Assembly: GCA_038044745.1 (NCBI GenBank)
Contig: JBBSZK010000007.1
Coordinates: 45,521-109,520, forward strand
DNA length: 64,000 bases
Source of the DNA: Nanobdellota archaeon
Lineage (GTDB): Archaea; Nanobdellota; Nanobdellia; Pacearchaeales; GW2011-AR1
Direction of reading: 5' to 3'
This document shows, one piece after another, positions 21,742-58,839 of this stretch. The notes beneath the pieces are model-generated. The model was not told the DNA's origin, did not search any database, and was given only the letters and a program-made list of their open reading frames with translations. Each line of letters begins with the position of its first letter. Positions within the stretch are counted from its first letter, which is position 1. A program made the position numbers and the translations under genes.

Positions 21742-21876
21742 ATGAAGAAGTATCTGCTTTTGATTGAGGATGAGAAGTTGTGGGGCAGGTTTAAGGAAAC
21801 CATACAGAAGGACATCAATAGTGAGCTTATCGAACTTGTTAAAGAAAAAGTAAAACGAGGGGTTAAGCATGAGTAG
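21742..21876 (+). CDS. small ribbon-helix-helix (CopG-like) DNA-binding protein, 44 aa (below the ORF-track cutoff)
   Basis: My translation is MKKYLLLIEDEKLWGRFKETIQKDINSELIELVKEKVKRGVKHE, which has a strand-helix-helix layout. 8-nt overlap with the next ORF. Confidence 0.4.
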   Translation: MKKYLLLIEDEKLWGRFKETIQKDINSELIELVKEKVKRGVKHE

Positions 21877-23731
21877 ACGTGGGCAGGTTGCTCTGTTTGT
21901 TATTATCGCAGTTGTGCTTATCGGGATAATTGTGGCCTTTTTCGCATTTCGTGATACGATTGGATTGGCCTCTATTCATCCCGAACTTGAACCGGTCTTT
22001 GATTATTACACTACTTGTATTGATGACGCGGTGCGTGCCGGAACTTCTCTTGCCGGTTCTCAGGGTGGTCGTGTTGAGCCTGGCGCGTATACGCCTGGGA
22101 GCGATTATGCTCCCTTCTCTTCGCACTTGTTTTTTGCAGGTACCCAAGTTCCTTATTGGTTTATGATTTCAGGAAATGGAATCACTGTCGAAAACGTCCC
22201 TACTCGTGCGAATCTTGAATCGGAGCTTGAAGCTTTTGTTTCTGATAGGCTTGCGTCTTGTGATTTTTCTTCATTTAGAGAACAGGGATTCTCAGTCAAT
22301 GTTTCCTCGCGTCCTCACGTCGAATTAACTATGAATGATAGAAGCGTCGATGTTCGTGTTGTCGGTTCTCTTGTCGTTAGTCGAGCTGATCTGCGAGGGG
22401 TGCGAGAAATTCATGATGTGCAAGTTTCGAGCAAGCTCGGTAGTTTTCTCAATGCGGCTCGCACGTTTTACACACAACAGCAACAGAATTCTTATTTTGA
22501 CAATTATGCTGCAGACATTTTGAGACTTTATGCTCCGGTTGATGGCGTTTCAGTACAATGTGCTCCTGAAATTTGGAAGACGCGCGAAGTCTTTGAAGAG
22601 TTACAGCGGGCCTTTGAGGCGAACTTCGCGCATATCCAGTTCTCGGATACGCGTTCGTCGTTGAATGCTTCTCGAGCGTACTTTACCATTCCTCATCGTT
22701 TTTCTGATTCCGCACGTGTCCTTTATTCTTCTGAATGGCCTGTTTTCTTTGAGGTAACCCCTGCGGATGATGAATTGATGGTTGCTGAACCCGTGGGCAA
22801 TCAGAAGGGGCTTGGTGTTATGGGCTTCTGTTACGTGCCGTATCATTTTCTTTATGATATTCGTTTTCCCGTTATGGTTCAATTGTACGACGGTCAAGAT
22901 GTATTCCAGTTTCCGATAGTTGTTCTGGTTGATAAAAATGCTCCTCGCTCTGCTCTTTCAACGGGTGTTGCTCCCGAGCCTGCGTCTGCAGATGTATGCT
23001 CGTTTAAAGAAGGTCGTGCGACTATCTCTACGTTCGACGTACAACTTAATCCTGTTGAAGCGGAGGTCTTTTACCAGTGCTTTGATCAGCGATGTCCTTT
23101 AGGTGAGACGCGTATCTCTGAACAAACTGCGTCTCTTAACGCTGCTTTACCTGTGTGCACCAATGGACAGCTTATCGCTCGCGCAGAGAATTATAGTGAA
23201 GCGCGCATTCTATTTTCTTCTAATAGCGAGTCTTTTGCCGAATTGATTCTCGAGCGTCTGCATTCGGTTCGCGTTGATGTACTCGTTGACGGTCGTTCTA
23301 CAAAGGATTTAGCTATTATTCATTTTACGAAGAGCGATGGCACAACGGTCAGCGCCTTGTTACCTGAACAGCCCTCGGTTATGCTCGGAGAGGGATTGTA
23401 TAACATTAGCGTGTATGTTTATGGTAATTCGAGCGTTAGCTTGCCTAGTACAACTCGACAAGAATGTACTCAGGTTCCGCGTGGGGGGATTGCAGGGTTC
23501 TTTGGAAGTACAGAAGAACGTTGTTTTGCGATAACGAGTCCGGAGACTAACATTGACTCTGCATTGCGCGGGGGCGGACGCTCGTCTGATATTTATCTGC
23601 TCGAGAGCGATGTTGCAGAGGGTCGTATCGCGCTCTACGTGAACTCGCTTCCTGCCCCCACAAGTTTTGAACAGTTGCAAACAAACTTTGAACTATTTGA
23701 TGCAGCAACTCTGGAGGTGGGGGCTCCATGA
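21869..23731 (+). CDS. large extracellular protein with pilin-like class III signal peptide
   Basis: N-terminus MSRRG-QVALFVIIAVVLIGIIVAFF. 620 aa. ATGA overlap with the 1917-aa ORF. Confidence 0.6.
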   Translation: MSRRGQVALFVIIAVVLIGIIVAFFAFRDTIGLASIHPELEPVFDYYTTCIDDAVRAGTSLAGSQGGRVEPGAYTPGSDYAPFSSHLFFAGTQVPYWFMISGNGITVENVPTRANLESELEAFVSDRLASCDFSSFREQGFSVNVSSRPHVELTMNDRSVDVRVVGSLVVSRADLRGVREIHDVQVSSKLGSFLNAARTFYTQQQQNSYFDNYAADILRLYAPVDGVSVQCAPEIWKTREVFEELQRAFEANFAHIQFSDTRSSLNASRAYFTIPHRFSDSARVLYSSEWPVFFEVTPADDELMVAEPVGNQKGLGVMGFCYVPYHFLYDIRFPVMVQLYDGQDVFQFPIVVLVDKNAPRSALSTGVAPEPASADVCSFKEGRATISTFDVQLNPVEAEVFYQCFDQRCPLGETRISEQTASLNAALPVCTNGQLIARAENYSEARILFSSNSESFAELILERLHSVRVDVLVDGRSTKDLAIIHFTKSDGTTVSALLPEQPSVMLGEGLYNISVYVYGNSSVSLPSTTRQECTQVPRGGIAGFFGSTEERCFAITSPETNIDSALRGGGRSSDIYLLESDVAEGRIALYVNSLPAPTSFEQLQTNFELFDAATLEVGAP

Positions 23732-26700
23732 AACGCTTAACCTTTCTCTTTTGTTTTGCCCTTATCGTCTTTTCTGCATTTTTTGTTTCTGCAGCTACGT
23801 CGGGTTTTTATGGTACGAGTTCAGGTTCTTCTCGATATGTCCAGTACCAGCAGCCCGATTTTCGTCATTATTATTCGGGTGCGCAGATTCGAGACTATTG
23901 GCCCATTCTTGCAGAGGATCAAAAAGAAGTATGTGAAGGGAGACAAGATTTGCTTGTTAACGTCGCTCCCCTCGGTTGCCAGCCCGCCGTTGTTAGAAGC
24001 GATTTACTTGCTGAGCAAAACGTTCCGATGTTCTGCCAGCTTGACGCTCTTCGTGTTAATCCTCTTGTTGAAATTAAACAAATTCGAAATATTCGATTTA
24101 CGGGAACCTATCCTAAAGAGGTTGCCGGTGTCGGATTTCACCCTGCTCAAGCTGCGCTTCGCACGCGGGGAGATTTGTTAGGTAGCCCGCTTTTGAACAA
24201 TATAGGCTATGTTGTCGTTTTATTACGTCGCCAGGCGAATGAGTCTGCTCAACCTAATTTTGTAAACTTCACGTTGCAGGCGCAGGTCGATTATTATGCG
24301 GATAATGTTCTTGGTGTCGGGACGAGTTCTTTTTACTTACAGCCCGTGAGCGATGCACAATGGGTAGAGGCACGCCTTCGTCAAAGTTTCTTTAATGGGC
24401 GTTATTTCATTCGTCTTGATGAAGTCGATGATGCACGTGCACGTATTTCTATTTATCACGGAGATTCGAGAGTTTCATCTACGACTGTAACTCTTGGGTC
24501 TAAGTCCGAACAGGTTATGTATCTCCCTGGTTCGTACTGTCAATTAGGTCTGCGTGCTTACTTTGACCGTTTTGAACCTGCTCAACCGATGGCTCAAATG
24601 CAGGTTGGTGATGACCTCGTTGATGTTGTCGAAGGAGGACGTTTCGCACAAGAGCGGTGTGTTGTTCGCTCAGTTATTTCTACGGGTGCAGAAGCAGGTC
24701 GGGTCGATATTGTGTGTGGCTCTCAATCGTTCAGCTTGGAACTCGCACCTCGTGTTTTTGAAAAGGGAGATCTTGTTCTTGTTAGTGGTCGTGAATCCGA
24801 AGGGGTCTTTAGCGTGGGGTCGGTTGATTCTAAAAAAGGGGTTTATTCCTTGCGTGCGACTAATGGGACGATTGTTTCTGTAGACTATCTTTTGGTATAT
24901 TCTACGGAATCAGGGAGACTGACGGAATTCGAACATTCTGATAAAGATCTTGAAGCTTACTTCGCTAAGACTATCGCCCAGTATCGATTGCTCGCTCAGG
25001 ATTATCCTCTTGAAAAATCTCTCGCTACACAGAGTATCGATTCGGTTGCGAGTTTCGGTCAGCAAGGTCTTGAACGTGCGATTAGTTTAGCTGAAGATGT
25101 GGGCAAGCAACGTACGGCTGCTGAACTTATAGGGTATTATTTGGAACTTTATCCCACTTCTGATCGGGCTTCTTACTTTGATCGACGTTTGCGTTACGAC
25201 TATCGGCATGACTCTAATGCGGCAGTTGCCGTTGTAGATTTGAACGGTCAAACAACGAGTATTCGCTTACGGGCCATTATTCCGCCCCACGACTCTTCAA
25301 AGGCAGATTTCAGTTGGAACGGCCAACGATTTTCGGTTGCACTTGAGCGTAATTATACTTTTGCAGTTCAGAAATCATTAGGCGTGCTTTCATTGGATAA
25401 AGATCGCGTACGTGTTGTTGCCGATTGTGGTGGTACGACGAGTTCGCGTGAGGATCGTACACTCTCGCTCATTTCTCGAGTTCAAGGGAGCAGCGAGGGG
25501 CGTACGGCAGAGTTGTGCGGGGGCGTTTTGCGTCTTGAGTCTATTTCGGTGGAGAACTATGCGCACATACGGCTGGTACCTGAAGCACGTGGCCCTACCG
25601 TACAGACCAATTTTAGCGTAGGTGTTGGCATTGAACAGCGCGCAATAAAACTTGCTCCTGATAAGATACAGGAACGCATTGATACGCTTAACAAGACTAT
25701 CGCCAAATGGGAATCTATTTCAGAAGGTCTTGGCAATGTTGTGAAAACCATGAAGGCGGCTTGCTTCGCAACTGCGGGCGTGCTCACGGTAAAGAATTTT
25801 GTTACGGGTCTAGATGGTACGGCGCTCGCTCGTCAGAAAGTCATGCGCGGACCTAATGGATGGACCGAGTATTGTCGAGGTCGTGTGAATGCTCAGGATG
25901 ACGGACCGAGCTATAGTTCTCTTGGGGAATGTTACAAGGACAATAGCGCGCTCATTGATCAAGACGTCTCTACGATGTCTTCTCTTATACAGGCGGATAA
26001 TACCTGTATTCGTGCTGCCGAGAGCGGGGCGACTCAGTCTTCGGGCACGTTTGGAACCTATGTCGATGGCGAGAAAGCAAAGCAAGCGTTCATTCAACGT
26101 TGTCTTAACGGATATGAGAATGAGCGTATTCGTTTAAGTGATGGTCGCGATGTGAGCGTTTCTGAGCTTACTAAAAATGTTTCGGGCAGTGGCACGGTTA
26201 TGAGTTATCAAGAACTTAAAGACCTTAAATTGAATCTCGAGTTGCAAAAACGACGCGGTGATTCTCCGGTCGCAGGCGATCTTTCTCGCGAGCAATTGGG
26301 ACGTCTTGGTGATCGCATCAGTGGTCGTATTGCATCTATTGAGAGCCAAGCGTCTATTGCTGATCTCGCGGGCGGTCAGGTGGAACAGATTCAAGGAGAG
26401 TTTTCACGTACGTATAATTATTATGGGCAGACTATTTCTGATGCTGGTCCGCGATATGGGTTGCTCTCGAATGTGCTTCCTACAGGTAGCGCGGTACAAG
26501 TGATTATGGTTCCTGATGAGGGCGTTTCTAAACCCTATCTTGCGGTACTCGACCCTGCCAACCCGACGACAGGGTTACGGTCGGTTAACCGGTATTATGC
26601 TTTGAAGGAAGAGAATGGCGCGTACGTGGTTAACGATTCAGAGCCCGATGTTATTTCTTCTGAGGCGGGGCGCACGATAGGTCAGTTCCGCCAAGTGACG

Positions 26701-29481
26701 CGGGCATCGTGTATCAATCGATTTGATTTGAGCGATGAAGCGCGCACGGCACACTTTTATGAAACGGAACCGTATAAGGGCATGCCTGCGCTTGTGCCGT
26801 TTGACTTTGAACAAGGGTGGTATGTGGGTACGCGTCAGACCGTCGCCGCGTTTGGAGGCATTAAAGCGTTTCAATCTTCAGGGCGACCGGTGAGCTTTTG
26901 GATTTGTAATGTGGGTGGTGACAAGCGGCCTGACTTTTTTGTGAACGGATTTGATGACGATATCTGTCAGCAGTTTAATCTTGAAACGGGAGCGCCCCTT
27001 ACGAAGTTTTCGTGTTTGAGTGAGAGTGAAACGAAAGACCTTGTTGATCGCGCGGTGCGTGCGCTCGAAGAAGCCACTCATCAATATTCACAGGGCGCAA
27101 AAGATCGTATCTCTATTGAAGGTCAATCGGTTAGGGTCGGCGCTCCTGCAACTAATGTGCCGGGCACCCAATGTCAAGACTTCATGAGCCCCGATGATTG
27201 CAGACTCTTGTTTAATGTGTGTGATCCGGTGATTTGTCCCGCTTCTCGGTGCGACTTTGGAGGCAAGTATCCCGTAACTGATGTGATTCAGAGCGGGATT
27301 GTAGGGAGTGCGCTCTTATGTCTACCTAATTGGAACGAAGGAGTGTACGTGCCGGTTTGTCTTTCGGGTATTAAGGCCGGACTTGATAGTTATATCTCGG
27401 TTTTGAAATCGCATAAACAATGCCTTCAAGAGAATTTGGAAAGCGGGAAGTACATCGGTATCTGTGATCAGATAAGTGCGATTTATATGTGCGAATTCTT
27501 CTGGAGACAAGCGGCTCCTGTTGCGAATATCCTCTTGCCCAAACTGGTCGAATCGCTTTACGGTCAAGGCGGGGCGCGAGGCGGTGGCGAATATGCGACG
27601 GTGCAAGCCTCGTGGGACAACGCACAGCAGTCGGTCAATTACTTTACTCAAAGTTATGCCGCTAATTCGTTTAAGGCCTTCAATGTACGGTCGGTTGCGG
27701 ATGCGGGCGGAGAGTTTTGTAAAGCGTTTATCTCTGCGAAGGCGCCGACACAATTTGAATCGCTTATTGAACCTGATAGCCCTCCGCAATTCCATGCGTG
27801 GTTTAGTCAAATTCCGTATAGTGATGCGACGGTGCCCGCCACGGCACAGTACAAAGTCTTTTATCATATTTTTGCAGGTGATGATCAGGGTGTTTCGTAT
27901 CAGGTATACTTGAAAGATCCGCCTCAGACGTCGTATTATCAAAGCGCGAGCACTATTTACGTCGATTCGCAATATGTTTCGAAGGGAAGTTATAAAACTG
28001 AGACCAAAGACTTTACCGCTCCCTCGGGTTACCAACAATTGTGCGTGCGTGTCAATGATAAAGAGGAGTGCGGATTCAAACAGGTGAGTACAAGCTTTGC
28101 TATCAATACGGTGCGCGATGAATTTGTACAAGGAGAACTTGAGCGGACCGACATTGCTACCGAGCGTGAATGTGTCTCCGGACGCGTTAATCCGTCGGCG
28201 CTCTTGAATCCTAATCTGCAAGAGATGGGTCAAGAGGCTATCGACCCTGCTGTGTACAATCGGGGTGTAACTCGTATTTGTTCGACCGATAATCCCGGCA
28301 GAGCTACGGACCCTGCGCGATTTGTCAAGGTCGGTGTTTGCGACGATGCGCGTGTTGGATGCTGGCTCGACACCCAAAGCGTCGATCGAGCAATTACTGT
28401 AAACAATAAGGGAGCACGTAATGAGACGCTTGAAAAATTGCAGATCATGGCTGAGCAGCAGTTGCGAGACGATACTCAATTCCTGTTTGGAGATGACGAA
28501 TTGCGCCTGATTGAAGATTTAGATGGACGTGTTATAAAGGGCTCATTGGGTGCGACCGAAGCCGATGGGATTGTTCGCGAGGTCGATTCTCTTTTTGGCA
28601 AGGTCATTGTAAACGCACAGAAGGCTGAACTTTTGTTCATTAAAGGAAAAGCCTATGAAGCTGTAACGAGGGGATTATGGATTGAACTAAAAAAGAAGTC
28701 TCTGCCCAAGACTACCGCGCCCCAAGATACGCCTACTTCTGGTTCACAATCTACCGAACGTTCGGATAGCTCTTCTCAAGTATCTAGCAAATCATCTCCT
28801 ATTGCTAATCGTTATGCCCAACCTACAGACGGATGGACTATTGACTCCGCACTTCTTGTTCTTGATTCAAGTGATACGACGGTTGTTTATGCGGCTACGG
28901 GTGATGAAGGAAAGGCATTCACTATGTTTGTTGATCAATTGGCCAAACAAGGGATTATTTCTCCTAAGGAATTGAATGATATCGATGGTCGGTTTGGTTT
29001 GGGTCGAGAGGATGCTTCTCACGTTAACGATTTACTTCTGAAGAAACGCGCTCGTGAAGGATATCACGTTGTGTTGACGCCCGCGTCGGCTAGTTCCAGG
29101 GTATATCGAATTATGAGCGGAACGAGGGATACGGGGCTCTACATGACGACGTGGCCTTCCGTTGATGTGTTTACTTATTTCGTTGGCGATTCTGCGGCCT
29201 CTTCTCTTAACGCTGATGCGGCGAGGAAAGAGCGTCTACCCTTTGTTGATATTTTTGTTGATAGTTCCGCAGGCATGGTCTCTGTTGGAAAGGTTAAGTT
29301 TACGGGGGAAATCACTTATTTAGATGGTGATTATCTCAAAGATAAATTATCATTATCAAATGAAATAATTGATGATTTGAATGGTGCGGTGTTTGATGGC
29401 TATCGGTTTGTTCCTGCTCCTGTAATGCCCCGGGATTCTTCTTCTGATATTCCTACTGGGCCTGACTCCGGCTTTGATTAG
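23728..29481 (+). CDS. giant secreted protein (1917 aa), unknown function
   Basis: Uninterrupted 5.75-kb ORF. Sec-type signal peptide MKRLTFLFCFALIVFSAFFVSAATSG. Cys-rich central region and an S/T-rich linker near aa 1660-1700. No C-terminal TM segment. Confidence 0.8.
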   Translation: MKRLTFLFCFALIVFSAFFVSAATSGFYGTSSGSSRYVQYQQPDFRHYYSGAQIRDYWPILAEDQKEVCEGRQDLLVNVAPLGCQPAVVRSDLLAEQNVPMFCQLDALRVNPLVEIKQIRNIRFTGTYPKEVAGVGFHPAQAALRTRGDLLGSPLLNNIGYVVVLLRRQANESAQPNFVNFTLQAQVDYYADNVLGVGTSSFYLQPVSDAQWVEARLRQSFFNGRYFIRLDEVDDARARISIYHGDSRVSSTTVTLGSKSEQVMYLPGSYCQLGLRAYFDRFEPAQPMAQMQVGDDLVDVVEGGRFAQERCVVRSVISTGAEAGRVDIVCGSQSFSLELAPRVFEKGDLVLVSGRESEGVFSVGSVDSKKGVYSLRATNGTIVSVDYLLVYSTESGRLTEFEHSDKDLEAYFAKTIAQYRLLAQDYPLEKSLATQSIDSVASFGQQGLERAISLAEDVGKQRTAAELIGYYLELYPTSDRASYFDRRLRYDYRHDSNAAVAVVDLNGQTTSIRLRAIIPPHDSSKADFSWNGQRFSVALERNYTFAVQKSLGVLSLDKDRVRVVADCGGTTSSREDRTLSLISRVQGSSEGRTAELCGGVLRLESISVENYAHIRLVPEARGPTVQTNFSVGVGIEQRAIKLAPDKIQERIDTLNKTIAKWESISEGLGNVVKTMKAACFATAGVLTVKNFVTGLDGTALARQKVMRGPNGWTEYCRGRVNAQDDGPSYSSLGECYKDNSALIDQDVSTMSSLIQADNTCIRAAESGATQSSGTFGTYVDGEKAKQAFIQRCLNGYENERIRLSDGRDVSVSELTKNVSGSGTVMSYQELKDLKLNLELQKRRGDSPVAGDLSREQLGRLGDRISGRIASIESQASIADLAGGQVEQIQGEFSRTYNYYGQTISDAGPRYGLLSNVLPTGSAVQVIMVPDEGVSKPYLAVLDPANPTTGLRSVNRYYALKEENGAYVVNDSEPDVISSEAGRTIGQFRQVTRASCINRFDLSDEARTAHFYETEPYKGMPALVPFDFEQGWYVGTRQTVAAFGGIKAFQSSGRPVSFWICNVGGDKRPDFFVNGFDDDICQQFNLETGAPLTKFSCLSESETKDLVDRAVRALEEATHQYSQGAKDRISIEGQSVRVGAPATNVPGTQCQDFMSPDDCRLLFNVCDPVICPASRCDFGGKYPVTDVIQSGIVGSALLCLPNWNEGVYVPVCLSGIKAGLDSYISVLKSHKQCLQENLESGKYIGICDQISAIYMCEFFWRQAAPVANILLPKLVESLYGQGGARGGGEYATVQASWDNAQQSVNYFTQSYAANSFKAFNVRSVADAGGEFCKAFISAKAPTQFESLIEPDSPPQFHAWFSQIPYSDATVPATAQYKVFYHIFAGDDQGVSYQVYLKDPPQTSYYQSASTIYVDSQYVSKGSYKTETKDFTAPSGYQQLCVRVNDKEECGFKQVSTSFAINTVRDEFVQGELERTDIATERECVSGRVNPSALLNPNLQEMGQEAIDPAVYNRGVTRICSTDNPGRATDPARFVKVGVCDDARVGCWLDTQSVDRAITVNNKGARNETLEKLQIMAEQQLRDDTQFLFGDDELRLIEDLDGRVIKGSLGATEADGIVREVDSLFGKVIVNAQKAELLFIKGKAYEAVTRGLWIELKKKSLPKTTAPQDTPTSGSQSTERSDSSSQVSSKSSPIANRYAQPTDGWTIDSALLVLDSSDTTVVYAATGDEGKAFTMFVDQLAKQGIISPKELNDIDGRFGLGREDASHVNDLLLKKRAREGYHVVLTPASASSRVYRIMSGTRDTGLYMTTWPSVDVFTYFVGDSAASSLNADAARKERLPFVDIFVDSSAGMVSVGKVKFTGEITYLDGDYLKDKLSLSNEIIDDLNGAVFDGYRFVPAPVMPRDSSSDIPTGPDSGFD

Positions 29482-33033: not shown

Positions 33034-33231
33034 ATGAATAAAAAAAAGTTGGTTATTAGGTTGTTAAAACGTAATCGTGATGGTCTTACGGTTGTTGAAA
33101 TTGCTCGAACGCTTTCCATATCTCGGAATACGGTTGCGGTTGTGCTTGCAGGACTCATCGGTGCGGAAATGGTGCGTGTGCGTCCTGTAGGTGTTGCCAA
33201 GCTTCATTATTGGCGGAGAGGAACCTCATGA
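33034..33231 (+). CDS. small winged-helix DNA-binding protein
   Basis: LTVVEIARTLSISRNTVAVVLAGLIGAEMVRVRPVG...HYW. ATGA overlap with the giant ORF start at 33228. Confidence 0.55.
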   Translation: MNKKKLVIRLLKRNRDGLTVVEIARTLSISRNTVAVVLAGLIGAEMVRVRPVGVAKLHYWRRGTS

Positions 33232-36200
33232 GATACATTCTTCTTTTAGCTGCATTATTGTTTATTGTGCTGCCTCTTGCGAGCGCGGCGACCCTCTTCT
33301 TTGACGGGTTTGAGTCTGGCACGCCCATACAAAACGGGTGGAACCTGCGTTCTATTTCGGCAGCGCAAAACTGGACTAATTCAAAGGTGAATCCGTTTCA
33401 AGGATTGCGGCATGCGCAATCACGACCTCTTTCGACAACGGTTCCTGCGAGCGTTATGTGGATTAATGTGAGTACGGTTGGATATACAAATGTTAGCGTA
33501 AGCTATTTCGTACGTCGTGTTGGGCTTGATGGTCCCGATGAATTTAATGTGACTTGGCATAACGGTACTGTGTGGGTGATGCTTGAACAGACGGGAAGTA
33601 GTTCTGCTAATGACGCTGCTTATGTAATGCGTAATTGGAGCTTGGGCGTGGCGGCGTCTAATAAATTGAACCTTACGATTCGTTTTGAATGCACGGCCGG
33701 AGCTGCTACGGAGTTCTGTCGTATTGACAATTTTAATATTACGGGGAATGTTTTAACTGACAGCACTCCTCCGCTCGTTAGTTTTATTACCCCCACCGAA
33801 GCCAATGAGTCGATTCTTTTGCGTTCGTTTATTCTGATTAATGTTACGGGGAACGATACTAATTTGGATAGACTAACGGTCCGCTTGTTTAACTCGAGTC
33901 ATTCACTTCTCTTTACTAATCTATCTTCTTCAAGTCCGTTTTTTGTTAATTATTCTGGGTTAAGTGATGGAAGATATTATTTCAATGCAAGTGCTAACGA
34001 CTCTGCTGGAAACGTTAACCATACGGAAACGAGAACGGTATTGATTGATGCTTTGGCGCCCGGATTGGCTATTGTTTCCCCCCTCCATGGAAATTACACC
34101 AATGCCCTGATTTTGATTAATATCTCTACGAGTGGTGCCGCGAGTGTGTGGTTTAATAACGGCACGGGAAATACGACGTACATAACCGAACTATATCAAA
34201 CGTTTGGGCAGGAATCGAACCTGCTTATCGCGTACGCGAACGACTCGGTTGGAAATCTTAATACGACAAATGTCACTTTCTTTATTGATTCGCTGGTACC
34301 ACACATTAGTTTTGGTGCGGGGACAAGTGCTTCGGGTAGTTCCGGTGTTCTCAGTTTGATTTATGTGGATATCAGCGCGAGCGATGCGAATGAGCAGAAT
34401 ATTGTCTTTAGTCTTTTTAATGCAACTTCATTAGTGGATCGTTCACAATTTGGTGCGGGCGCACGAGCGATTAACTGGACTAATTTAGCGAACGGTGTCT
34501 ATTTCTACAATGTTACCATCAATGACACGCTCGGAAATGCTAACTGGACTGAAACACGGAACCATACGGTTGATAATGTGGCTCCTCTGGTAGATGCGCT
34601 TGTTCCCGTTGCAGACACTACTTTTGCGCTCAATGGTTCTATTGAAATTGGCGTCAACGTGAGTGATGCGCATAGTTTTGTTTCAAGCGTTATTGCGTCT
34701 CTTGCTTATCCTAATGGGACATTTGTTAATCTCTCATTAGAAAATGTTCAGGGGGTTAAGTACAATGCGACCTTTGTTGTCCCCTATCTATTCGGCCGTT
34801 ATAACGTCAGTTTTTATGCGAATGATAGTCTTGGTAATGTGAATACTACTCAAACCACGTTTTTCACGGGTGCTGATGTAACTGCTCCGCGCTATTCAAA
34901 CGCAAGTCAAACGCCTGTCAGTCCGACAACCTACGCGCCTTTCAGAAACTATACGTTTAATATAACTTGGACAGATGAGGTTGCACTTAATAGCGTATTG
35001 TTTGAATTTAATTCTATTAACTATACGATGGCGCTACAAGGCTCGAGCGTTTACTCGATTACATTCTTTGATCTTGCTGCCGGTACTTATGCTTATCGTT
35101 ATCTCGCGAATGATTCTGCAGGTAATTGGAACTCCACGAGTCTCGATACCTATATTATTTCAAAATCTGTTCCGAATCTGAGTTTTCTCCTTAATGGAAC
35201 GGAGAGTAACTTGAGCCTCATGTATGGTGATGGCGTTAATGCTTCTGCACTATCGGCCACGAACACCGTTCAATTGTATCGAAATGGCGTGAACGTAACC
35301 TCTGAGAATCATCTTTTTGTAACGCTTGCGGTTGGGCAGTACAATTACACTGCGACCGCGTTCGAAAATCAAAACTATAGCCTATTGAACCTTACTCGCT
35401 CAGTGTTTATTAGTCCGGCTATCGGTGCAGTGACGTTACTTCTCAACAGTTCTGCTTCTAATCAGACGGGCTTTTATGGTGTGTTGACTAACGCTTCTGC
35501 ATCAACGCCGTACGGAGTTGTAACCTTGTATCGCGATGGTGTTGACGTGACTGGCGCCAATCATCACCTTATGCAACTCGCTTCTGGAGATTATAATTGG
35601 ACGGCAGTTAGTTCGGGTAACGAAAACTATTCGAGTTCAAGTATAGCTCTGTGGAGCCATATTGCTCGAGCGCAGGGAAATGTAACACTCTTGCTTAACG
35701 GCTCTGCAGAAAATCTTACAATTTCTTATCCTGGGCAGGTTAATGCATCAGCTACTTCGGCTACGGGCGGCATCCAATTGTACCGTAACGGTGTTAATAT
35801 GACCAACGAAAATCACCAATTTGTGGGGCTTGCGGTTGGGCAGTATAACTATACTGCTTTTGCACTTGAAAGCCAAAACTATACCAATGCTTCGACGTTA
35901 GTGCGTGCAACTATCATAGGTGTTGTGCCCGATTTGAATATTTCGATAACGCCTTCTTCGAACGTGGTATATCCTACGGCAACAACGGCTTTGGGAATAG
36001 GTTGCGTGGATGAATTGACGTGTGTCCTTTATCGTAATCATGCCTTCGTTTCTAATCCCGATAGCGCAACCCTCGGAGCGGGAACGTATATGTATGTGTA
36101 TAATACGACGGGTAATGAGAACTATAGCTCTGCAAGTTTTTCACGCATACTTATTGTCAATCAAAGTACGGGCTTAGTTTACGCGTACGTTAACCATGCG

Positions 36201-49894: not shown

Positions 49895-50049
49895 TGGCTC
49901 TGGGGAGAGTTGAACTCCCGACTTCGGCCTTGCTCAATCGACAACTCTTTCGAGTTGTCGACACGCGCAGAACGTTTGTTCTGCGGTGGCTCCTTTTCTT
50001 GCGAATCGGAGCTTATGAGAGCCGCACTCTACCGCTGAGTTACAGAGCC
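49895..50049 (-). tRNA. tRNA-Met/CAU-anticodon tRNA (elongator-type G1:C72) with an 83-nt intron at 37/38
   Basis: 5' exon 50049-50014, intron 50013-49931, 3' exon 49930-49895. Anticodon arm CGGCT-CTCATA[intron]A-GGCCG. T arm GGGAG-TTCAACT-CTCCC. The intron end TGAG pairs with the loop CTCA (BHB-like). The intron contains three strong hairpins. Confidence 0.7.
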
Positions 50050-54749: not shown

Positions 54750-55206
54750 GTTGCTCTTGAAAGAGCTACACGATTCTTATGCTTCTTTGCAACGTTCATC
54801 AGGTGTTCGTGCGAGCTTAGATGAGTTGGACGTGGCGTTTTATGTGCGCGATGCGATTTTGTCCGCAGGATATGTTAGTTCTCTTCCTTCTCAACAGCTC
54901 TGTGCTCGGATTGCGGATGTTTTTATGAATTGGAATAGTTATCTTCATGGGCTTGTGATGCCCGATCCTCATTTTTTAGTTCAGATGAATGAAAGCAAAT
55001 TTATTGATTCTGAGGGCAAGAAAGCGATTCTTGCGCTGATTGCTCGTTCTATGGTGTTTGTAAGTAGAAATACTCTCTTCCACGCACGCGCGGATTTGAG
55101 GGAAGAAGCTCGGTTTATTGACGAATCACTTGCCTTTTGGAAGAACGATTATCAACCGACTCTTATCTCGATTCTTGAAACGTTACGAGCGCGATGGAGT
55201 GGCTGA
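54739..55206 (+). CDS. hypothetical protein
   Basis: ATG at 54739 overlaps the leuS 3' end by 11 nt. 155 aa. No motif recognised. Confidence 0.45.
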   Translation: MSNELLLKELHDSYASLQRSSGVRASLDELDVAFYVRDAILSAGYVSSLPSQQLCARIADVFMNWNSYLHGLVMPDPHFLVQMNESKFIDSEGKKAILALIARSMVFVSRNTLFHARADLREEARFIDESLAFWKNDYQPTLISILETLRARWSG

Positions 55207-55344
55207 CTGTTGCTCTTTTTCCGTGAATTCGCTTATAAGGTTTGTGTTTGCCATTTTTCAGTGAATTGCTATTTAACTATGCGTGTTGTCAAAAACGTAT
55301 TTTTTAGATTATTATGACTATATAAAAAAGTTAAACTACTATCT

Positions 55345-55536
55345 GGTATGAAACAAGCCTTGCAGCCCCTGATGCTTGCGCGGTGCAGTCGGTGTGGCAC
55401 TTGTTTCGACCTCCAATACGACCTTGCGTCGTTGGGAGCCGATGACCGAGTTGTTACACAGCTCGGAAAAGCAGCACACCTTGCCGCGCGAGCCACCCTT
55501 TGTTGGAAATGCCGTTTGTAAGTGTTTACTTCCGGC
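55345..55536 (+). ncRNA. candidate ncRNA of unknown class with its own TATA box and oligo-T terminator; 5' end approximate
   Basis: TATA ctatataaaaaa at 55318-55329. GC-rich body with a 10-bp long-range helix (55374-55383 GCTTGCGCGG pairs with 55484-55493 CCGCGCGAGC), an inner GGTGTG/CACACC helix and two internal hairpins. It ends at a T-run. Confidence 0.3.
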
Positions 55537-55550
55537 TTTTTTCTTTTTTT
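55537..55550 (+). terminator. oligo-T tract (TTTTTTCTTTTTTT), archaeal-type terminator for the candidate ncRNA
   Basis: T6-C-T7 directly after the GC-rich structured region. Confidence 0.4.
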
Positions 55551-55634
55551 GTTACCCTTATTCTTATCCTTTAGTTACTCCTTCTTAGATACAACAACCT
55601 AAAGGTTTAAAAAGCCCGAATTTGTAGAAAAAGC

Positions 55635-56507
55635 ATGACAGCACAAGCACAATCTGTTGAAGTTGAAGCAGAACATAATAGCAATAGTCTTATCTATAAA
55701 ATTGCTCCATGGGGAACCGCAGTAAAATCATTATATGACGCTGGTGCCAAAGTTATCAGTTCTCGTGACCTTGCTGATGCTCGTATTGCTCTCGGTTCAC
55801 AATCTAGCGTTTCAGCCAATGGAAGCTACACAAAAGAAGGATTTATTTATGTTGCAGACCAAAAACCTCTTGTTGTTGCAGAATCTCCGCTTTTGGATGT
55901 TATGCTAGCAAGAGGCGCAAGTGACGCACACAAGGCTGAAAGCGAGGTTTTTTATGATGCTAAAGATGTTTTCGCACAACTTGATGAAGATGCAAATAAA
56001 GCTCCCCAAGACCGACGTGTCTTGCGATTAAAAAAAGATAAAAGCTATTCTGTTCCAACCAATCGATTTGGTGAAGATGAGTTGGCTTTGTTCTTATTCA
56101 AAGACAGAGCAACTGCTTATGGTACATTCTTGCGTTCTAACGACATTAAAGATATGCCTGTTTGGGTTGTTGATAAATCATATATTGATAAACAAGGTTC
56201 TCCTTTTGTTAGACAGTTGTGGCTTCACAGGCTTGACGTTGACAACCAGTCTGTTGTCTATGGCGACAACGGGGACCTCGACATGAGCAACAGGGTTCGC
56301 GGGGTGCGTCCGTCTGTCGCGAGCGAAGCTCGCGTGCGCTCTGCTGAAAGCACAGGGCAAGTTAGTGAAAATAGCGAACTTGCATACGACCCTGCACAGA
56401 TTAGTGAATATCAAACTATCCTTCAAGAAGTTCGTAAGGGAGACCGCGCCGCTTCAGACCTAGAACAAGTCTTAGAGTTTATTAATGGATTGCCGGTTAA
56501 GAAGTAA
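55635..56507 (+). CDS. DGR target (variable) protein, 290 aa; VR encoded at aa 194-225
   Basis: Contains the VR at 56216-56307 (LWLHRLDVDNQSVVYGDNGDLDMSNRVRGV). No N-terminal signal peptide or TM segment visible. TATA gtttaaaaag lies about 25 nt upstream. Confidence 0.85.
   Translation: MTAQAQSVEVEAEHNSNSLIYKIAPWGTAVKSLYDAGAKVISSRDLADARIALGSQSSVSANGSYTKEGFIYVADQKPLVVAESPLLDVMLARGASDAHKAESEVFYDAKDVFAQLDEDANKAPQDRRVLRLKKDKSYSVPTNRFGEDELALFLFKDRATAYGTFLRSNDIKDMPVWVVDKSYIDKQGSPFVRQLWLHRLDVDNQSVVYGDNGDLDMSNRVRGVRPSVASEARVRSAESTGQVSENSELAYDPAQISEYQTILQEVRKGDRAASDLEQVLEFINGLPVKK
56216..56307 (+). repeat. DGR variable repeat (VR)
   Basis: 92 nt aligned without gaps to TR (offset 582). 10 mismatches, all opposite TR adenines. 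All 64 non-A TR positions are identical. Confidence 0.9.
56318..56334 (+). promoter_or_regulatory. GC-rich hairpin 11 nt downstream of VR (CGCGAGC-gaa-GCTCGCG), candidate DGR target-recognition hairpin
   Basis: Perfect 7-bp stem seen in the sequence. Its position matches the hairpin/cruciform element described downstream of VR in characterised DGRs. Confidence 0.5.
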
Positions 56508-56797
56508 AATTCAGTACATTCCAAAACAACTATTTCTTCTTACAACAATCATTAAAAACTGTTAATTTTTGTTAATCATGCCTCGGTCACTCTGTACTGA
56601 TATGAACGGAGCATTACGAGGCCACACGTCTTTGTATTAGTCTTGCGAACGCAAGCAGTAAAATACAACTGCGACAGCCAGTATGCTATCCGGATGGCGA
56701 ACCCTGAAGCAGTGGTGACGAGCATTTACATTCAGATAAATGTGTAATTGATTTCTGAATGTGGGTGCGAGTAAATTAGGTACAAGGGCTACCCTGT

Positions 56798-56889
56798 GTT
56801 GTGGCTTCACAGGCTTGACGATGACAACCAGTCTGATGTCAATGGCAACAACAGGAACCTCGACATGAACAACAGGGTTCGCGGAATGA
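56798..56889 (+). repeat. DGR template repeat (TR)
   Basis: Non-coding copy of VR, 25 nt upstream of the RT start. 28 adenines, many in AAC/AAT-type codon positions (frame reads LHRLDDDNQSDVNGNNRNLDMNNRVRG). Confidence 0.9.
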
Positions 56890-56914
56890 CCTCAGACCGA
56901 GGTTTCATACTTAA

Positions 56915-57999
56915 ATGGAGACATATACTAAGCTCTACTCTGAGCTGTGTTCGATGGGCAATCTTACGCTTGCGTGGCGCAATGCACGCAAGGGGAAAAC
57001 ACAACAACCAAAGGTTATTGAATTTGATCGAAATATTACTGAGGCTCTTCTTGCTTTACATACTGAATTGACTACTAATAAATATCAGCCTAAACCGCTC
57101 GTTAGTTTTATTTTACGAGACCCAAAGACGCGTACAATATCTAAATCAGACTTCAGAGATAGGGTTGTTCATCACGCACTTATTACTCTCTTGAGGCCGA
57201 TTTTTGAGAAGACGTTTATTTACGATTCGTGCGCTGGCCGAATTGGTAAGGGGACTCTTTTTGCACTTAAACGATTTACCTATTTTGCACGAAAAGTCAT
57301 AGGAAATGGCAAGAATGTTTCTAATAGATATCATGACCAAAACAATGTTCGTGGCTATTGTCTTAAGGCAGATATTAAACATTATTTTCAGGAAATCAAT
57401 CATGAAATCCTCTTGAGTATTATTTTCAGAAAAATAAAGGATAAACAAGTTTTGTGGCTTATTCGCCAGATTTTGAACAATACCTCTGATCCTTCGTGGG
57501 GGGGGGGGGCGAACGCCAAAAAGGTATGCCTCTCGGAAACTATACTTCCCAATTTTTTGCCAACATCTATCTCAATGAACTTGATCAGTTTGTAAAACAC
57601 ACACTTAAAGTCAAATATTATGTGCGTTATGTTGATGACTTTGTTATCATTCATAGGTCTAAAGGGCAACTTGAGCAATGGAAAAAAGAAATCGAGTCTT
57701 TCTTAAAAGAGAAACTTCAGATTGACCTTCATGCTGATAAATCTCGTGTTATTCCCCTCTCGAGGGGTGTTGACTTTGTAGGTTTTAGAAACTTCGCGCA
57801 TTTCAGATTACTACGAAGAAGGAATATAAAGAAGATGATACGAAAAATAAGGATGTTTAAAGATGGCAAGATGGATTTTCGTCCTTTAATGGAAAGCTAC
57901 CAAGGGTGGCAGGCGTATGCGCGGTGGGCGAATACCTATAGGTTGCGTAAGAATTTGGCACGAACTCTTGTAGACATTATCTGGAATAAGGTCGAATAA
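56915..57999 (+). CDS. DGR reverse transcriptase, reading frame interrupted in a G12 homopolymer (57498-57509)
   Basis: The N-part (56915..57595 frame) carries RT motifs 1-3. The C-part (57496..57999 frame) carries GMPLGNYTSQFFANIYLNELD (DGR-type SQ motif) and YVRYVDDFVI (YxDD). A 13th G, or a -1 ribosomal slip, gives the continuous sequence ...SWGGGGERQKGMPLGN... Confidence 0.85.
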
Positions 58000-58059
58000 A
58001 AAGAGCCTTCACGGTTTTTTTCTTATCATTATCTTTATAATGCCTTTTTTTCTTAGGTC

Positions 58060-58839
58060 TTGATGCAGGAATGGCTATCGCTTCTTATTTTGGCTGTGGT
58101 GCAGGGAGTTACCGAGTGGCTTCCTATTTCTAGTTCGGGGCATCTCGTTCTTGTTGAATGGCTAATCAATTATGACGCGAGTCTTGAACTTGAAGTGGCT
58201 TTGCACTTGGGCACGCTTATGGCCATGTTTGTTTATTTCGGAAAGGATATTATGGATATCTTAGAAGACTTTTTGAAGGGTAATTGGAAAAGTGATTCTG
58301 GCAGGATGGGGTGGTTGATTATTGTTGCTACGCTGCCCGCCGTCTTTGCAGGGTACTTCTTCTACGATTTTTTTGAGCAAACGTTTAGTGATAAGGGAAG
58401 TCTTGTTCTCGGGTTCGCCATTACGGCCGTCTTTTTGGTTATTGCTTCGCTTGACTTTAAGCATCATCGCACGTCTATTCGTTTTTCTGATGCTCTTATT
58501 CTTGGGGGTGTTCAAGCGATTTCAATTCTTCCGAGTATTTCTCGTTCTGGTGCGACTATTGCTGCCGCGCTTCTTCTGGGGTTGCCTGAAAAAACTGCAG
58601 TTCGTTTTTCTTTTCTTATGGCAATTCCCGCACTTCTTGGTGCAGGTATGCTCGCACTTAATAGGGCCACGCTTCCTGCTTCGTTTATAGTGCCTACGCT
58701 TATTTCATTTGCGACTGCTCTTTTAGTGGTGCATGTCCTGTATACGAGTTTGTTGCGCGATAAGAAGAACTTGCGGTGGTTCGCGCTCTATTCGTTTATT
58801 TTGGCTGTTGCTATTCTCATGTGGTTGTTGTTCTTTTGA
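58060..58839 (+). CDS. uppP: undecaprenyl-diphosphatase (UppP/BacA)
   Basis: VQGVTEWLPISSSGHLVL and SRSGATI motifs. 259-aa polytopic membrane protein. Confidence 0.9.
   Translation: MMQEWLSLLILAVVQGVTEWLPISSSGHLVLVEWLINYDASLELEVALHLGTLMAMFVYFGKDIMDILEDFLKGNWKSDSGRMGWLIIVATLPAVFAGYFFYDFFEQTFSDKGSLVLGFAITAVFLVIASLDFKHHRTSIRFSDALILGGVQAISILPSISRSGATIAAALLLGLPEKTAVRFSFLMAIPALLGAGMLALNRATLPASFIVPTLISFATALLVVHVLYTSLLRDKKNLRWFALYSFILAVAILMWLLFF

What the first reader, a model, noticed from the sequence alone, without database searches (positions are those of the whole stretch)
55606..57999. Complete diversity-generating retroelement with a perfect adenine-only TR/VR mismatch pattern
Seen directly: VR 56216-56307 and TR 56798-56889 align without gaps over 92 nt. 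They differ at 10 positions (TR 56821, 56836, 56841, 56847, 56853, 56856, 56869, 56885, 56886, 56889). At every one the TR base is A; the VR bases are T, T, T, G, G, G, G, G, G and C. None of the 64 non-A positions differs, and 10 of 28 TR adenines are changed. At least the first nine change the encoded amino acid (D>V, D>V, N>Y, N>D, R>G, N>D, N>S, M>V); the tenth, at 56889, is the terminal and marginal position. The TR lies 25 nt upstream of an RT with DGR-type motifs (LGNYTSQ, YVDD). Established knowledge: adenine-specific mutagenic retrohoming from TR to VR defines DGRs, and DGRs have been reported in DPANN-type archaea. The system class is therefore known, but this target protein and architecture may not be. 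It is the clearest accessory system in the window.
Basis: partly seen in the sequence, partly recalled or inferred. Interest (0 to 1): 0.9.

Follow-up and report, generated by a model that had tools for sequence, protein, structure and literature searches.

The report
Archaeal diversity-generating retroelement, RT frameshifted
This is a real diversity-generating retroelement of the type already known from nanoarchaea: it rewrites about 30 codons of a small lectin-fold protein, but in this strain its reverse transcriptase gene is broken by a run of 12 G, whereas a near-identical strain has 13 G and an intact gene.

Summary
VR 56216-56307 and TR 56798-56889 align without gaps, and all 10 mismatches fall on TR adenines. 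Seven of these are genuine A-substitutions. The last three (56885, 56886, 56889) are the fixed IMH (GGGGT) versus IMH* (GGAAT) difference seen in every related locus.

The element is a typical DPANN/nanoarchaeal DGR. Its order is target gene, Rfam RT-16 RNA, TR, then RT. The RT resembles the Bordetella-phage DGR RT. A GAA-loop hairpin follows the VR. The predicted target fold matches AvpA (PDB 5ioo). No Avd gene was found. At least 59 related loci share this layout.

A sister strain has an identical TR, but its VR differs at 11 of 87 nt, 9 of them at TR adenines. The rest of the cassette is about 99% identical, so diversification was recent.

Three things go beyond the finding:
- RT-16 ends at the TR 5' boundary.
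- The RT-16 5' end pairs with a segment just after the TR, and the pairing covaries across loci.
- The RT is frameshifted at G12 here and intact at G13 in the sister strain. Across about 800 kb of related loci, every G run of 8 or more lies in the RT gene or its leader. This suggests, but does not prove, an on/off switch.

Verdict: a new member of a known kind.

The parts
55635..56507 (+). Target (variable protein) gene, 290 aa. The predicted fold is an AvpA-like C-type lectin. The VR encodes aa 195-224 and is followed by a ~65-aa C-terminal tail.
   Evidence: ORF. No Pfam or NCBIfam hit. 24 homologs, all without Pfam domains, named ones from Nanoarchaeota/Woesearchaeota MAGs. AF2 model pLDDT 87. 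Foldseek top hit 5ioo_A, E 6e-9, TM 0.70.
56216..56302 (+). Variable repeat (VR). A-derived substitutions at 56239, 56254, 56259, 56265, 56271, 56274 and 56287.
   Evidence: The sister strain L091 differs here at 11 of 87 nt, against ~1% in the rest of the gene.
56293..56309 (+). IMH (GGGTTCGCGGGGTGCGT; GGGGT at 56301-56305). It encodes the invariant VRGVR strand.
   Evidence: Conserved VR end ...GGGGTGCGT in W, L001, L003, L004 and L005. Matches the TGGGGT IMH of DUSEL4 DGRs.
56318..56334 (+). Hairpin/cruciform element 3' of the VR, inside the target ORF: 7-bp stem CGCGAGC/GCTCGCG with a GAA loop.
   Evidence: DNA fold centroid. Equivalent GAA/GTA-loop hairpins with different stem sequences in L001, L003, L004 and L005. 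GRA triloop described in PMC4372165.
56551..56558 (+). Archaeal TATA-like box (ATTAAAAA), about 23-30 nt upstream of the RT-16 5' end. Probable promoter of the DGR RNA.
   Evidence: Positions -29 to -22 are ~100% A/T in 37 loci, and the best TATA match peaks at -30/-29. The promoter role is inferred.
56581..56797 (+). RT-16 RNA (Rfam RF03019), the structured 5' domain of the DGR RNA. It ends exactly where TR homology starts.
   Evidence: 61.5 bits against a gathering score of 50. RT-16 lies upstream of the RT in 35 of 40 further loci scanned, and in 4 closer relatives, 3 of them above the gathering score. Its 3' end is within 6 nt of the TR start in 34 of 36 loci.
56580..56588 (+). 5' arm (GCCUCGGUC) of a long-range helix that brackets the RT-16 core plus TR.
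   Evidence: Pairs with 56895-56903 in the MFE fold. Cognate versus non-cognate duplex energy is -13.7 versus -7.7 kcal/mol, P 6.5e-11. It is the best partner within 1.4 kb in 23 of 36 loci.
56798..56884 (+). Template repeat (TR). It has 25 adenines in 18 codons, and no stop codon is reachable by changing adenines alone.
   Evidence: Identical in the sister strain (0 of 91 differences).
56875..56891 (+). IMH* (GGGTTCGCGGAATGACC; GGAAT at 56883-56887).
56888..56904 (+). Short hairpin directly after IMH* (GACCUC / GAGGUU). It overlaps the 3' arm (56895-56903) of the long-range helix, so the two are alternative pairings.
   Evidence: 76% of cells paired, all 6 pairs covary, and it beats all slid controls. 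Long-range arm.
56915..57509 (+). RT gene, N-terminal part (motifs 1-3), up to and including the G tract.
   Evidence: ORF 56915-57595. PF00078 3e-21 on the repaired protein. Aligned to 8ub7_A.
57498..57509 (+). G12 homopolymer in the variable linker before motif 4 (GMPLGN). It puts the RT out of frame; G13 or G10 would be in frame.
   Evidence: G12 in three assemblies. G13 with an intact 361-aa RT in sister strain L091.
57510..57999 (+). RT gene, C-terminal part (GMPLGNYTSQ, YVDD, thumb), in the +1 frame.
   Evidence: ORF 57496-57999..

Best explanation
This is a chromosomal diversity-generating retroelement of the nanoarchaeal (DUSEL4/DPANN) type.

Proposed mechanism. Steps marked (shown) rest on results here. 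Steps marked (inferred) follow from homology to the Bordetella-phage DGR.
1. An archaeal promoter about 25-30 nt upstream of 56581 drives one RNA that contains the RT-16 domain, the TR, IMH*, a short spacer and the RT mRNA (inferred from a conserved A/T box).
2. The RNA's 5' end (56580-56588) pairs with 56895-56903 just after the TR. This encloses the RT-16 core and the TR in one domain. The pairing competes with two local hairpins (shown by covariation; its function is inferred).
3. The RT binds this RNA and starts cDNA synthesis at the IMH* end of the TR. It copies the TR while misincorporating opposite adenines, and stops at the RT-16/TR junction (inferred).
4. The cDNA replaces the VR of the target gene. 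The replacement is directed by the IMH (GGGGT) and the GAA-loop hairpin downstream of it (inferred).
5. The result is that up to 18 codons of an AvpA-like C-type-lectin-fold protein are recoded, presumably changing a ligand-binding surface. That diversification happened recently is shown by comparison with the sister strain.

No Avd gene is present. The large RT-16 RNA probably takes over the scaffolding role (inferred).

In this strain the RT ORF is interrupted at a G12 tract. The copy is therefore off, or only weakly expressed through frameshifting. A near-identical strain with G13 has an intact RT.
For: - TR/VR: 10 of 10 mismatches fall on TR adenines, and 27 of 28 adenines are at codon positions 1 or 2.
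- RT: the GMPLGNYTSQ and YVDD motifs are present. The best solved relative is 8ub7_A (E 1e-37, colinear over residues 6-344), ahead of group II intron and retron RTs at 2e-20 or weaker.
- IMH/IMH* GGGGT versus GGAAT, and a GRA-loop hairpin inside the target ORF, exactly as published for DUSEL4 DGRs.
- The target model (pLDDT 87) matches AvpA 5ioo_A at E 6e-9. It shares AvpA's internal VR and its flexible, helical C-terminal tail.
- The same cassette with A-only mismatches (8-23 A, 0-2 other in nearly every pair) occurs in 59 related loci from DPANN MAGs.
- RT-16 sits above its gathering score and abuts the TR start.
- Long-range helix.
- Conserved TATA-like box.
- Recent activity: sister strain L091 has an identical TR, 11 of 87 VR differences (9 at TR adenines), and about 1% divergence elsewhere in the cassette.
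Against: - The RT is frameshifted in this strain, consistently in three assemblies, so present-day activity here is doubtful.
- The VR consensus is identical in all assemblies of this population. No read-level data were available.
- No Avd was found in cis in 165 loci, and none appeared in the shown part of the Pfam scan of 32 small ORFs of the window. Avd is essential in the only biochemically studied DGR, so either an unrecognised partner exists elsewhere or the mechanism differs.
- The priming site, the cDNA start and stop points, and the role of RT-16 are all inferred, not shown.
- Two of the sister strain's VR differences are at T, not A.
Confidence: 0.87

Rival explanations
1. The G tract is a reversible on/off (phase-variation) switch for the DGR. 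Slippage between G12 and G13 turns RT synthesis off and on. A lineage could then diversify its lectin-fold protein and afterwards lock in a useful variant. The window strain would be an OFF variant.
For: - G12 gives a split RT here, in three assemblies. G13 gives an intact 361-aa RT in a strain that is ~99.5% identical across the RT.
- In two independent sets of related loci (484 kb and 321 kb), all 19 G runs of 8 or more lie in the RT linker, after YVDD, or in the RT 5' leader. All are on the sense strand.
- Tracts occur at three different sites, each expected to affect RT expression.
- The nucleotide motif G(7-13)CGAAC is kept while its reading frame differs between loci.
- Tract-bearing RTs are scattered across the tree.
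- L005 is frameshifted in the same linker, at GGGGGAGGGG.
- Four of eight contigs of this locus end within 100 nt of the tract.
Against: - Only two populations were compared, and no read-level tract-length heterogeneity is available.
- Only 2 of ~16 linker tracts are out of frame.
- Most of the clade (~90%) has no tract.
- Part of the motif is explained by a conserved Gly-Gly-Gly-Glu-Arg peptide.
- Phase variation of a DGR RT is unreported: no such paper stood out among the top-ranked results of the literature search.
Confidence: 0.3
2. The RT is a plain pseudogene. The DGR in this strain has recently died through a slippage mutation, and the TR/VR pair is a relic.
For: The frameshift is reproducible. 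The VR consensus is invariant across samples. 2-4 of ~165 related RTs are also split.
Against: Apart from the single-G difference, the RT has only 5 substitutions relative to the intact sister copy, with no further lesions. The TR, RT-16, IMH and hairpin are all intact. Any inactivation is therefore very recent and would be reversed by a single slippage event.
Confidence: 0.3
3. G12 is a sequencing or assembly miscount of a true G13. The RT is intact and the DGR is simply active.
For: Illumina indel errors rise at long homopolymers. Contigs tend to break near the tract.
Against: The same G12 appears in three assemblies from different samples at 20-28x coverage. A different well gave G13 with comparable methods. 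The NCBI MAG record carries the same split.
Confidence: 0.15
4. It is not a DGR. The repeat is an ordinary duplication, and the RT belongs to a group II intron or a retron.
For: NCBIfam's best hit, far below its cut-off, is the group II intron RT/maturase model (145.8 bits against a cut-off of 300). Some databases label clade members 'retron-type'.
Against: - Mismatches are restricted to adenines here and in 59 loci.
- The best solved relative is the RT with the IGSLTSQLFANVY motif, not an intron RT.
- No intron RNA domains or retron msr/msd appear in the Rfam scan.
- All NCBIfam hits are below their cut-offs.
Confidence: 0.01

Closest known systems
DUSEL4 Nanoarchaeota DGRs (Paul et al. 2015, PMC4372165) and the DPANN/CPR DGRs that followed
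   Same: The order is target, then TR, then RT, all on one strand. The IMH is GGGGT against IMH* GGAAT. A GRA-triloop hairpin lies inside the target ORF. The VR is internal, with a C-terminal tail after it. The target is a small orphan protein, and the host is a groundwater DPANN archaeon.
   Different: The target belongs to a sequence family not detectably related to AvpA. That paper marked small ORFs between target and RT as Avd-like on the basis of pI and molecular weight. Here that interval is the RT-16 RNA and holds no conserved ORF. The RT is frameshifted in this strain.
AvpA, archaeal DGR variable protein (PDB 5ioo; Handa et al. 2016, PMC5006420)
   Same: The predicted fold matches (Foldseek E 6e-9, TMt 0.70). 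The VR is short (~30 aa) and near but not at the C terminus. The IMH encodes an invariant final strand (VRGVR here, RFxGV in AvpA). The tail after the VR is flexible and helical, and the hairpin lies in coding sequence.
   Different: Identity is 17%. The family profile finds no PDB sequence at E<=1. AvpA's motifs GxxVVVYAH and HPxxxPFxG are absent; this family's conserved motifs are EGF, PTNRF and RQLWL...VRGVR.
Bordetella phage BPP-1 DGR (bRT-Avd-DGR RNA)
   Same: The RT is colinear with the closest solved RT (8ub7_A, which I take to be bRT from memory). The A-mutagenesis signature is the same. IMH/IMH*, a hairpin after the VR, and a duplex between sequences upstream and downstream of the TR are all present.
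   Different: There is no Avd. The structured RNA lies 5' of the TR (RT-16, ~160-220 nt), not in a ~140-nt spacer 3' of it. Only 25 nt separate the TR from the RT ORF. The upstream arm of the bracketing duplex is the RNA's 5' end, not the sequence next to the TR.
Rfam RT-16 RNA (RF03019; Weinberg et al. 2017, PMC5737381)
   Same: The window sequence scores above the family's gathering score over the full model.
   Different: The family was published only as a motif found near RT genes, with function unassigned. That paper tied only RT-10 to a DGR. The later papers found only list RT-16 in tables. Here RT-16 is placed as the 5' flank of the TR in a DPANN DGR clade, and an extra long-range helix extends beyond the model.
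Homopolymeric-tract contingency loci of bacteria (e.g. Neisseria, Campylobacter, Helicobacter)
   Same: A long G tract in a coding region differs by one base between near-identical strains and toggles the reading frame. Tracts also occur in the 5' leader in relatives.
   Different: Switching within a population has not been shown. The host is an archaeon, and the gene is a retroelement RT rather than a surface or restriction-modification gene.

Membership tests
Diversity-generating retroelement (DGR) | TR/VR repeat pair whose differences are restricted to TR adenines | tested here: met
   10 of 10 mismatches (7 of 7 in the mutable core) are at TR adenines; P 2e-6 and 8e-5 respectively.
Diversity-generating retroelement (DGR) | RT of the DGR clade, with motif 4 [LIV]GxxxSQ and YxDD, located next to the TR | tested here: met
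   GMPLGNYTSQ and YVDD are present. The best solved relative is 8ub7_A at 1e-37, against 2e-20 for group II RTs. No formal phylogeny was run.
Diversity-generating retroelement (DGR) | Intact RT reading frame | tested here: not met
   The G12 tract at 57498-57509 shifts the frame. The sister strain with G13 is intact.
Diversity-generating retroelement (DGR) | VR in the 3' part of a protein-coding gene, with a non-coding TR | tested here: met
   The VR encodes aa 195-224 of 290. The TR lies between the RT-16 RNA and the RT.
Diversity-generating retroelement (DGR) | IMH/IMH* pair and an inverted repeat downstream of the VR | tested here: met
Diversity-generating retroelement (DGR) | Accessory protein Avd (present in many DGRs, not all) | tested here: not met
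   No conserved small ORF was found in 165 loci. No Avd-type Pfam family appears among the 25 best of 37 families hit by 32 small ORFs of the window. Flanking ORFs have no hits.
Diversity-generating retroelement (DGR) | Actual mutagenic retrohoming | tested here: inconclusive
   Indirect support comes from the sister strain: its TR is identical and its VR differs at 11 of 87 nt, 9 at A sites. No reads or cDNA were available. Activity in this frameshifted strain is unknown.
DUSEL4-type nanoarchaeal DGR (Paul 2015) | IMH contains (T)GGGGT and IMH* contains (T)GGAAT | tested here: met
   The window has CGGGGT and CGGAAT. L001, L003 and L005 have TGGGGT and TGGAAT.
DUSEL4-type nanoarchaeal DGR (Paul 2015) | GRA-triloop hairpin inside the target gene | tested here: met
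   7-bp stem with a GAA loop at 56318-56334.
AvpA-like CLec-fold variable proteins | AvpA-type C-type lectin fold | tested here: met
   Foldseek against 5ioo_A: E 6e-9, probability 1.00, TMt 0.70. This is the only hit below 1e-3. The structure is a predicted model (pLDDT 87), not a solved one.
AvpA-like CLec-fold variable proteins | Sequence similarity and motifs GxxVVVYAH, HPxxxPFxG, RFxGV | tested here: not met
   The family profile A1 finds no PDB chain at E<=1. The motifs are absent from the alignment. VRGVR only occupies the position equivalent to RFxGV.
Rfam RT-16 (RF03019) | Covariance-model score at or above the gathering threshold | tested here: met
   61.5 bits against 50, with model positions 1-158 matched.
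Phase-variable contingency locus | Hypermutable repeat whose length sets the reading frame, with ON and OFF alleles among close relatives | tested here: met
   G12 (OFF) against G13 (ON) in cassettes ~99% identical. Only two populations were compared.
Phase-variable contingency locus | Length heterogeneity within a population, and reversible switching | not testable with these tools
   This needs raw reads or amplicon sequencing.

The most novel reading that the evidence does not exclude
In this DPANN DGR clade, RT expression may be controlled by slippage-prone G tracts in the RT linker, after YVDD, or in the 5' leader. A lineage could then switch hypermutation of its lectin-fold protein on and off, and the window strain (G12) would be a naturally OFF variant of a G13 ON allele. 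Coupled to this, the clade may work without Avd. In place of Avd it would use the RT-16 RNA, closed by a helix between the transcript's 5' end and the segment just after the TR, as the scaffold that positions the RT.
Probability: 0.3. Interest if true: 0.75.

Novelty: new member of a known kind. Interest (0 to 1): 0.45.

Why it matters
The element itself adds little. DGRs with AvpA-like targets are already known to be abundant in DPANN archaea.

What could matter are three leads that came out of checking it:
1. Rfam's orphan RT-16 motif gains a concrete role, as the 5' domain of the DGR RNA. It abuts the TR in dozens of loci.
2. A strongly covarying helix links the RNA's 5' end to the segment just after the TR. 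This gives a testable RNA architecture for a DGR that lacks Avd, and it can be compared directly with the Bordetella-phage RNP structure.
3. How hosts stop a DGR from overwriting a useful variant is an open question. The G12/G13 difference between two near-identical strains, and the confinement of long G runs to the RT cassette, suggest a simple on/off switch. Read mapping or amplicon sequencing of existing groundwater samples could test it.

Tried and rejected
- RNAalifold found no consensus structure in the post-TR segment. A hand-specified hairpin then tested moderately well.
- The 6-nt complementarity between the G-tract motif GCGAAC and the TR end GTTCGC looked like a possible priming duplex. 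I rejected it because other tract-bearing loci have unrelated TR ends.
- NCBIfam has no model that the RT passes; all hits are below their cut-offs. Pfam, NCBIfam and PDB sequence searches on the target family and on five other target families found nothing.
- A search for a second VR, target paralog or second RT in the window found none.
- A search for Avd found none, both by de novo clustering of all ORFs in 165 loci and by a Pfam scan of 32 small ORFs. The latter output shows only the 25 best of 37 families, so a weak hit cannot be fully excluded.
- Paul et al. 2017 (PMC5436926) and the Weinberg 2017 supplement are not held, so RT-16's original description and taxonomy could not be read.
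- The large RT protein search did not return the sister-strain RT among its top hits. Cluster look-ups gave too few members to count tract variants in the population.
- I could not confirm from a paper that PDB 8ub7 is bRT. That identification rests on my own knowledge, the 328-aa length and the shared motif.
Full report
**Observation.** VR 56216-56307 and TR 56798-56889 align without gaps at an offset of 582. They differ at ten positions. At every one the TR base is A, none of the 64 non-A positions differs, and the TR has 28 adenines. If mismatches fell at random, the chance that all ten would hit adenines is 2e-6. 27 of the 28 adenines sit at codon positions 1 or 2 of the VR reading frame. 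From the codons themselves, no stop codon can arise by changing adenines only.

Two details need correcting. The change at 56885 is silent (GGA>GGG). The last three mismatches (56885, 56886, 56889) are not products of random mutagenesis. In every related locus I examined, the TR ends ...GG|AATG... and the VR ends ...GG|GGTGCGT. This is the IMH/IMH* distinction published for nanoarchaeal DGRs, TGGGGT versus TGGAAT (PMC4372165). The true count is therefore 7 substitutions among 25 adenines (P 8e-5). The window holds only one VR, one target gene and one RT.

**Host.** The window is archaeal. It carries intron-containing tRNA genes (Rfam tRNA matches of 112 and 155 nt that ARAGORN does not call), a tRNA-intron endonuclease, ribosomal proteins S8e, S17e and L44e, and an LSM protein. 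The identical target protein is annotated in a Nanoarchaeota MAG from Hainich groundwater, well H43.

**Anatomy.**
- *Target.* The target ORF (55635-56507, 290 aa) has no Pfam or NCBIfam hit. It has only 24 homologs, all without Pfam domains; the ones that carry a source name are from Nanoarchaeota/Woesearchaeota MAGs. In their alignment the block RQLWLHRL....VRGVR is conserved, while the positions between vary freely, as expected if all of them are DGR targets.
- *Target fold.* An AlphaFold2 model built on that alignment is confident (pLDDT 87). Its only significant match among solved structures is 5ioo_A, AvpA, the Nanoarchaeota DGR variable protein (E 6e-9, TM 0.70 normalised to AvpA, 17% identity). 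The AvpA paper describes the same layout: a short VR near but not at the C terminus, an IMH-encoded invariant last strand, a flexible two-helix tail, and the DNA hairpin inside the coding sequence. At the sequence level the family is distinct. Its profile finds no PDB chain at E<=1, and AvpA's motifs are absent.
- *Hairpin after the VR.* A 7-bp hairpin with a GAA loop lies at 56318-56334. The four closest loci have equivalent hairpins with different stems and GAA or GTA loops.
- *RT.* The RT (56915-57999) carries GMPLGNYTSQ and YVDD. It matches PF00078 and is colinear with PDB 8ub7_A at E 1e-37. From memory I take that 328-aa reverse transcriptase to be the Bordetella-phage bRT. The best group II intron RT scores 2e-20.

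**The cassette is one of a large, uniform clade.** Searching genome and metagenome contigs with the RT gave 160 further loci, nearly all from DPANN MAGs. The protein database holds more than 4,600 relatives at E<=1e-60. In the first set, 59 loci have a VR upstream of the TR on the same strand, with 8-23 A mismatches and 0-2 others in nearly every pair. Several have two VRs. The targets fall into several families of 220-290 aa, none with a Pfam domain. The window's family accounts for about eleven of 66.

**No Avd.** De novo clustering of every ORF in 165 loci finds the RT, the target families and a few flanking genes, but no conserved small accessory ORF. A Pfam scan of 32 small ORFs of the window lists no Avd-type family among the 25 best of 37 families hit.

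**The DGR RNA.**
- *RT-16.* The interval between target and TR is not empty. Rfam RT-16 (RF03019) matches 56581-56797 at 61.5 bits (gathering score 50) and ends exactly where TR homology begins.
- *RT-16 across the clade.* RT-16 is found upstream of the RT in 35 of 40 further loci scanned, and in the four closest relatives. Its 3' end lies within 6 nt of the TR start in 34 of 36 loci (comparing those calls).
- *What was known about RT-16.* It was published only as one of 19 motifs near RT genes. Only RT-10 was tied to a DGR. The later papers I could find merely list it in tables.
- *Promoter.* An A/T box at -29 to -22 from the RT-16 5' end is conserved in 37 loci (ATTAAAAA at 56551-56558 here). 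This fits an archaeal TATA box and a transcript that starts at RT-16.
- *Long-range helix.* Folding 56581-56930 gives z = -3.55 and pairs the 5' end (56580-56588) with 56895-56903, just after IMH*. The pairing covaries strongly. Cognate 5'-end/post-TR duplexes average -13.7 kcal/mol against -7.7 for non-cognate combinations (P 6.5e-11, 36 loci). In 23 of 36 loci the post-TR window is the single best partner among about 133 windows in the next 1.4 kb.
- *Alternative pairings.* The same 5' end can also pair with the local P1 arm of RT-16 (-11.1 versus -7.5, P 2e-9). The post-TR arm can form a small local hairpin (76% paired, all six pairs covary). Alternative conformations are therefore likely.
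- *Comparison with the phage DGR.* The arrangement resembles the duplex between sequences upstream and downstream of the TR in the Bordetella-phage RNP. The difference is that the large structured domain is 5' rather than 3' of the TR.

**Evidence of activity.** A sister contig from well H52 (L091) is about 99% identical across 55035-58830. Its TR is identical (0 of 91). Its VR differs at 11 of 87 nt, nine of them at TR adenines, while the rest of the target differs by about 1%. The DGR has therefore rewritten the VR since these copies diverged.

**The frameshift.** In the window the RT is split at a G12 run (57498-57509). G13 or G10 would be in frame. G12 is present in three assemblies from different samples and in the NCBI record. 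The sister strain has G13 and an intact 361-aa RT.

Looking across the clade, every G run of 8 or more in 484 kb and in an independent 321 kb of loci lies within the RT cassette. There are 9 and 10 such runs, all on the sense strand. Eleven are in the same linker before GMPLGN, two follow YVDD, and six are in the leader just 5' of the RT. The RT plus leader makes up only about 29% of the second set.

The linker tracts share the nucleotide motif G(7-13)CGAAC. It mostly encodes GGG(G)ER, but two loci read it in another frame. Tract-bearing RTs are scattered across the tree. L005 is frameshifted in the same linker. Four of eight contigs of this locus end within 100 nt of the tract.

This pattern fits a slippage-prone switch, but only two populations could be compared and no reads were available. 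A recent pseudogene, or a homopolymer miscount, remain live alternatives.

**Verdict.** The finding is a genuine DGR and a new member of a known kind: the DUSEL4/DPANN type with an AvpA-like target. Three by-products deserve follow-up: the assignment of RT-16 to this DGR clade, the TR-bracketing helix, and the G-tract polymorphism.

Noticed in passing
window 57498-57509; L011 2230-2240, L038 3574-3582, L057 1724-1733, L020 3746-3754, L036 3701-3709, L078 2976-2983, L079 674-682, L160 895-904, L100/L103/L108-L110/L114/L131/L135 linker tracts: Long G runs (8-13 nt) are confined to the RT gene or its 5' leader across the whole RT clade. All 19 runs in ~800 kb are on the sense strand, and the linker tracts are usually followed by CGAAC.
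   Followed up: partly
window 55035-58830 versus L091: A ~3.8-kb block (the upstream intergenic GC-rich segment, the DGR cassette and uppP) is 98-100% identical between two genomes. Their flanking genes are only ~60-75% identical (leuS upstream, the 320-aa ORF downstream), and identity decays in steps at the left edge. This suggests recent recombination or transfer of the DGR block between co-occurring DPANN lineages.
   Followed up: partly
window 55348-55521: A GC-rich island in an AT-rich intergenic region holds a 57-aa ORF with CxxC...CxxC spacing. It has no Pfam, NCBIfam or Rfam hit and is 100% conserved in the sister strain. It could be a small zinc-ribbon protein or an RNA.
   Followed up: partly
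window 19730-19841 (-) and 49895-50049 (-): Rfam finds tRNA matches of 112 and 155 nt that ARAGORN does not report. These are probably intron-containing archaeal tRNA genes. A tRNA-intron endonuclease domain is also encoded in the window.
   Followed up: no
window 21869-29481, 33228-39107, 39626-44446: A cluster of very large ORFs (620, 1917, 1959, 714 and 879 aa) with hydrophobic N termini. They are probably giant surface proteins of the kind common in DPANN genomes.
   Followed up: no
L091 VR (equivalent to window 56252 and 56255): Two of the sister strain's VR differences from the TR are at T (T>A, T>G). They flank an adenine that is itself unchanged, so they do not fit strict A-mutagenesis.
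   Followed up: no
L006 4001-4624; contig of P0024: Members of the target family occur without an adjacent RT. They may be orphan or remote targets, or leftovers of lost cassettes.
   Followed up: no
L013, L019, L020, L021, L026, L045, L055, L081: These cassettes have two tandem target genes, each with its own VR matching the single TR.
   Followed up: no
L049 2777-2890 (-): An RT-16 match lies on the strand opposite to the RT and downstream of it. It may belong to a second, convergent cassette cut off by the contig end.
   Followed up: no
L025 4701-5867 (-) and L131 239-877 (+) families: A 389-aa family (9 loci) and a 213-aa CxxC-rich family (11 loci) recur next to these DGR cassettes. Neither has a Pfam hit.
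   Followed up: partly
window 56680-56702: RT-16 here carries AGUA...GAA, the signature of a sarcin-ricin-type internal loop. A 2026 survey of Rfam loops lists RT-16 among families with such a motif (PMC13085918).
   Followed up: no
L003 about 20 nt upstream of 4813; L028 and L032 upstream of the Rfam start: In some loci the sequence that pairs with the post-TR segment lies 10-20 nt upstream of where the Rfam RT-16 model begins. The RNA's true 5' end is therefore probably mis-set by the model in these loci.
   Followed up: partly
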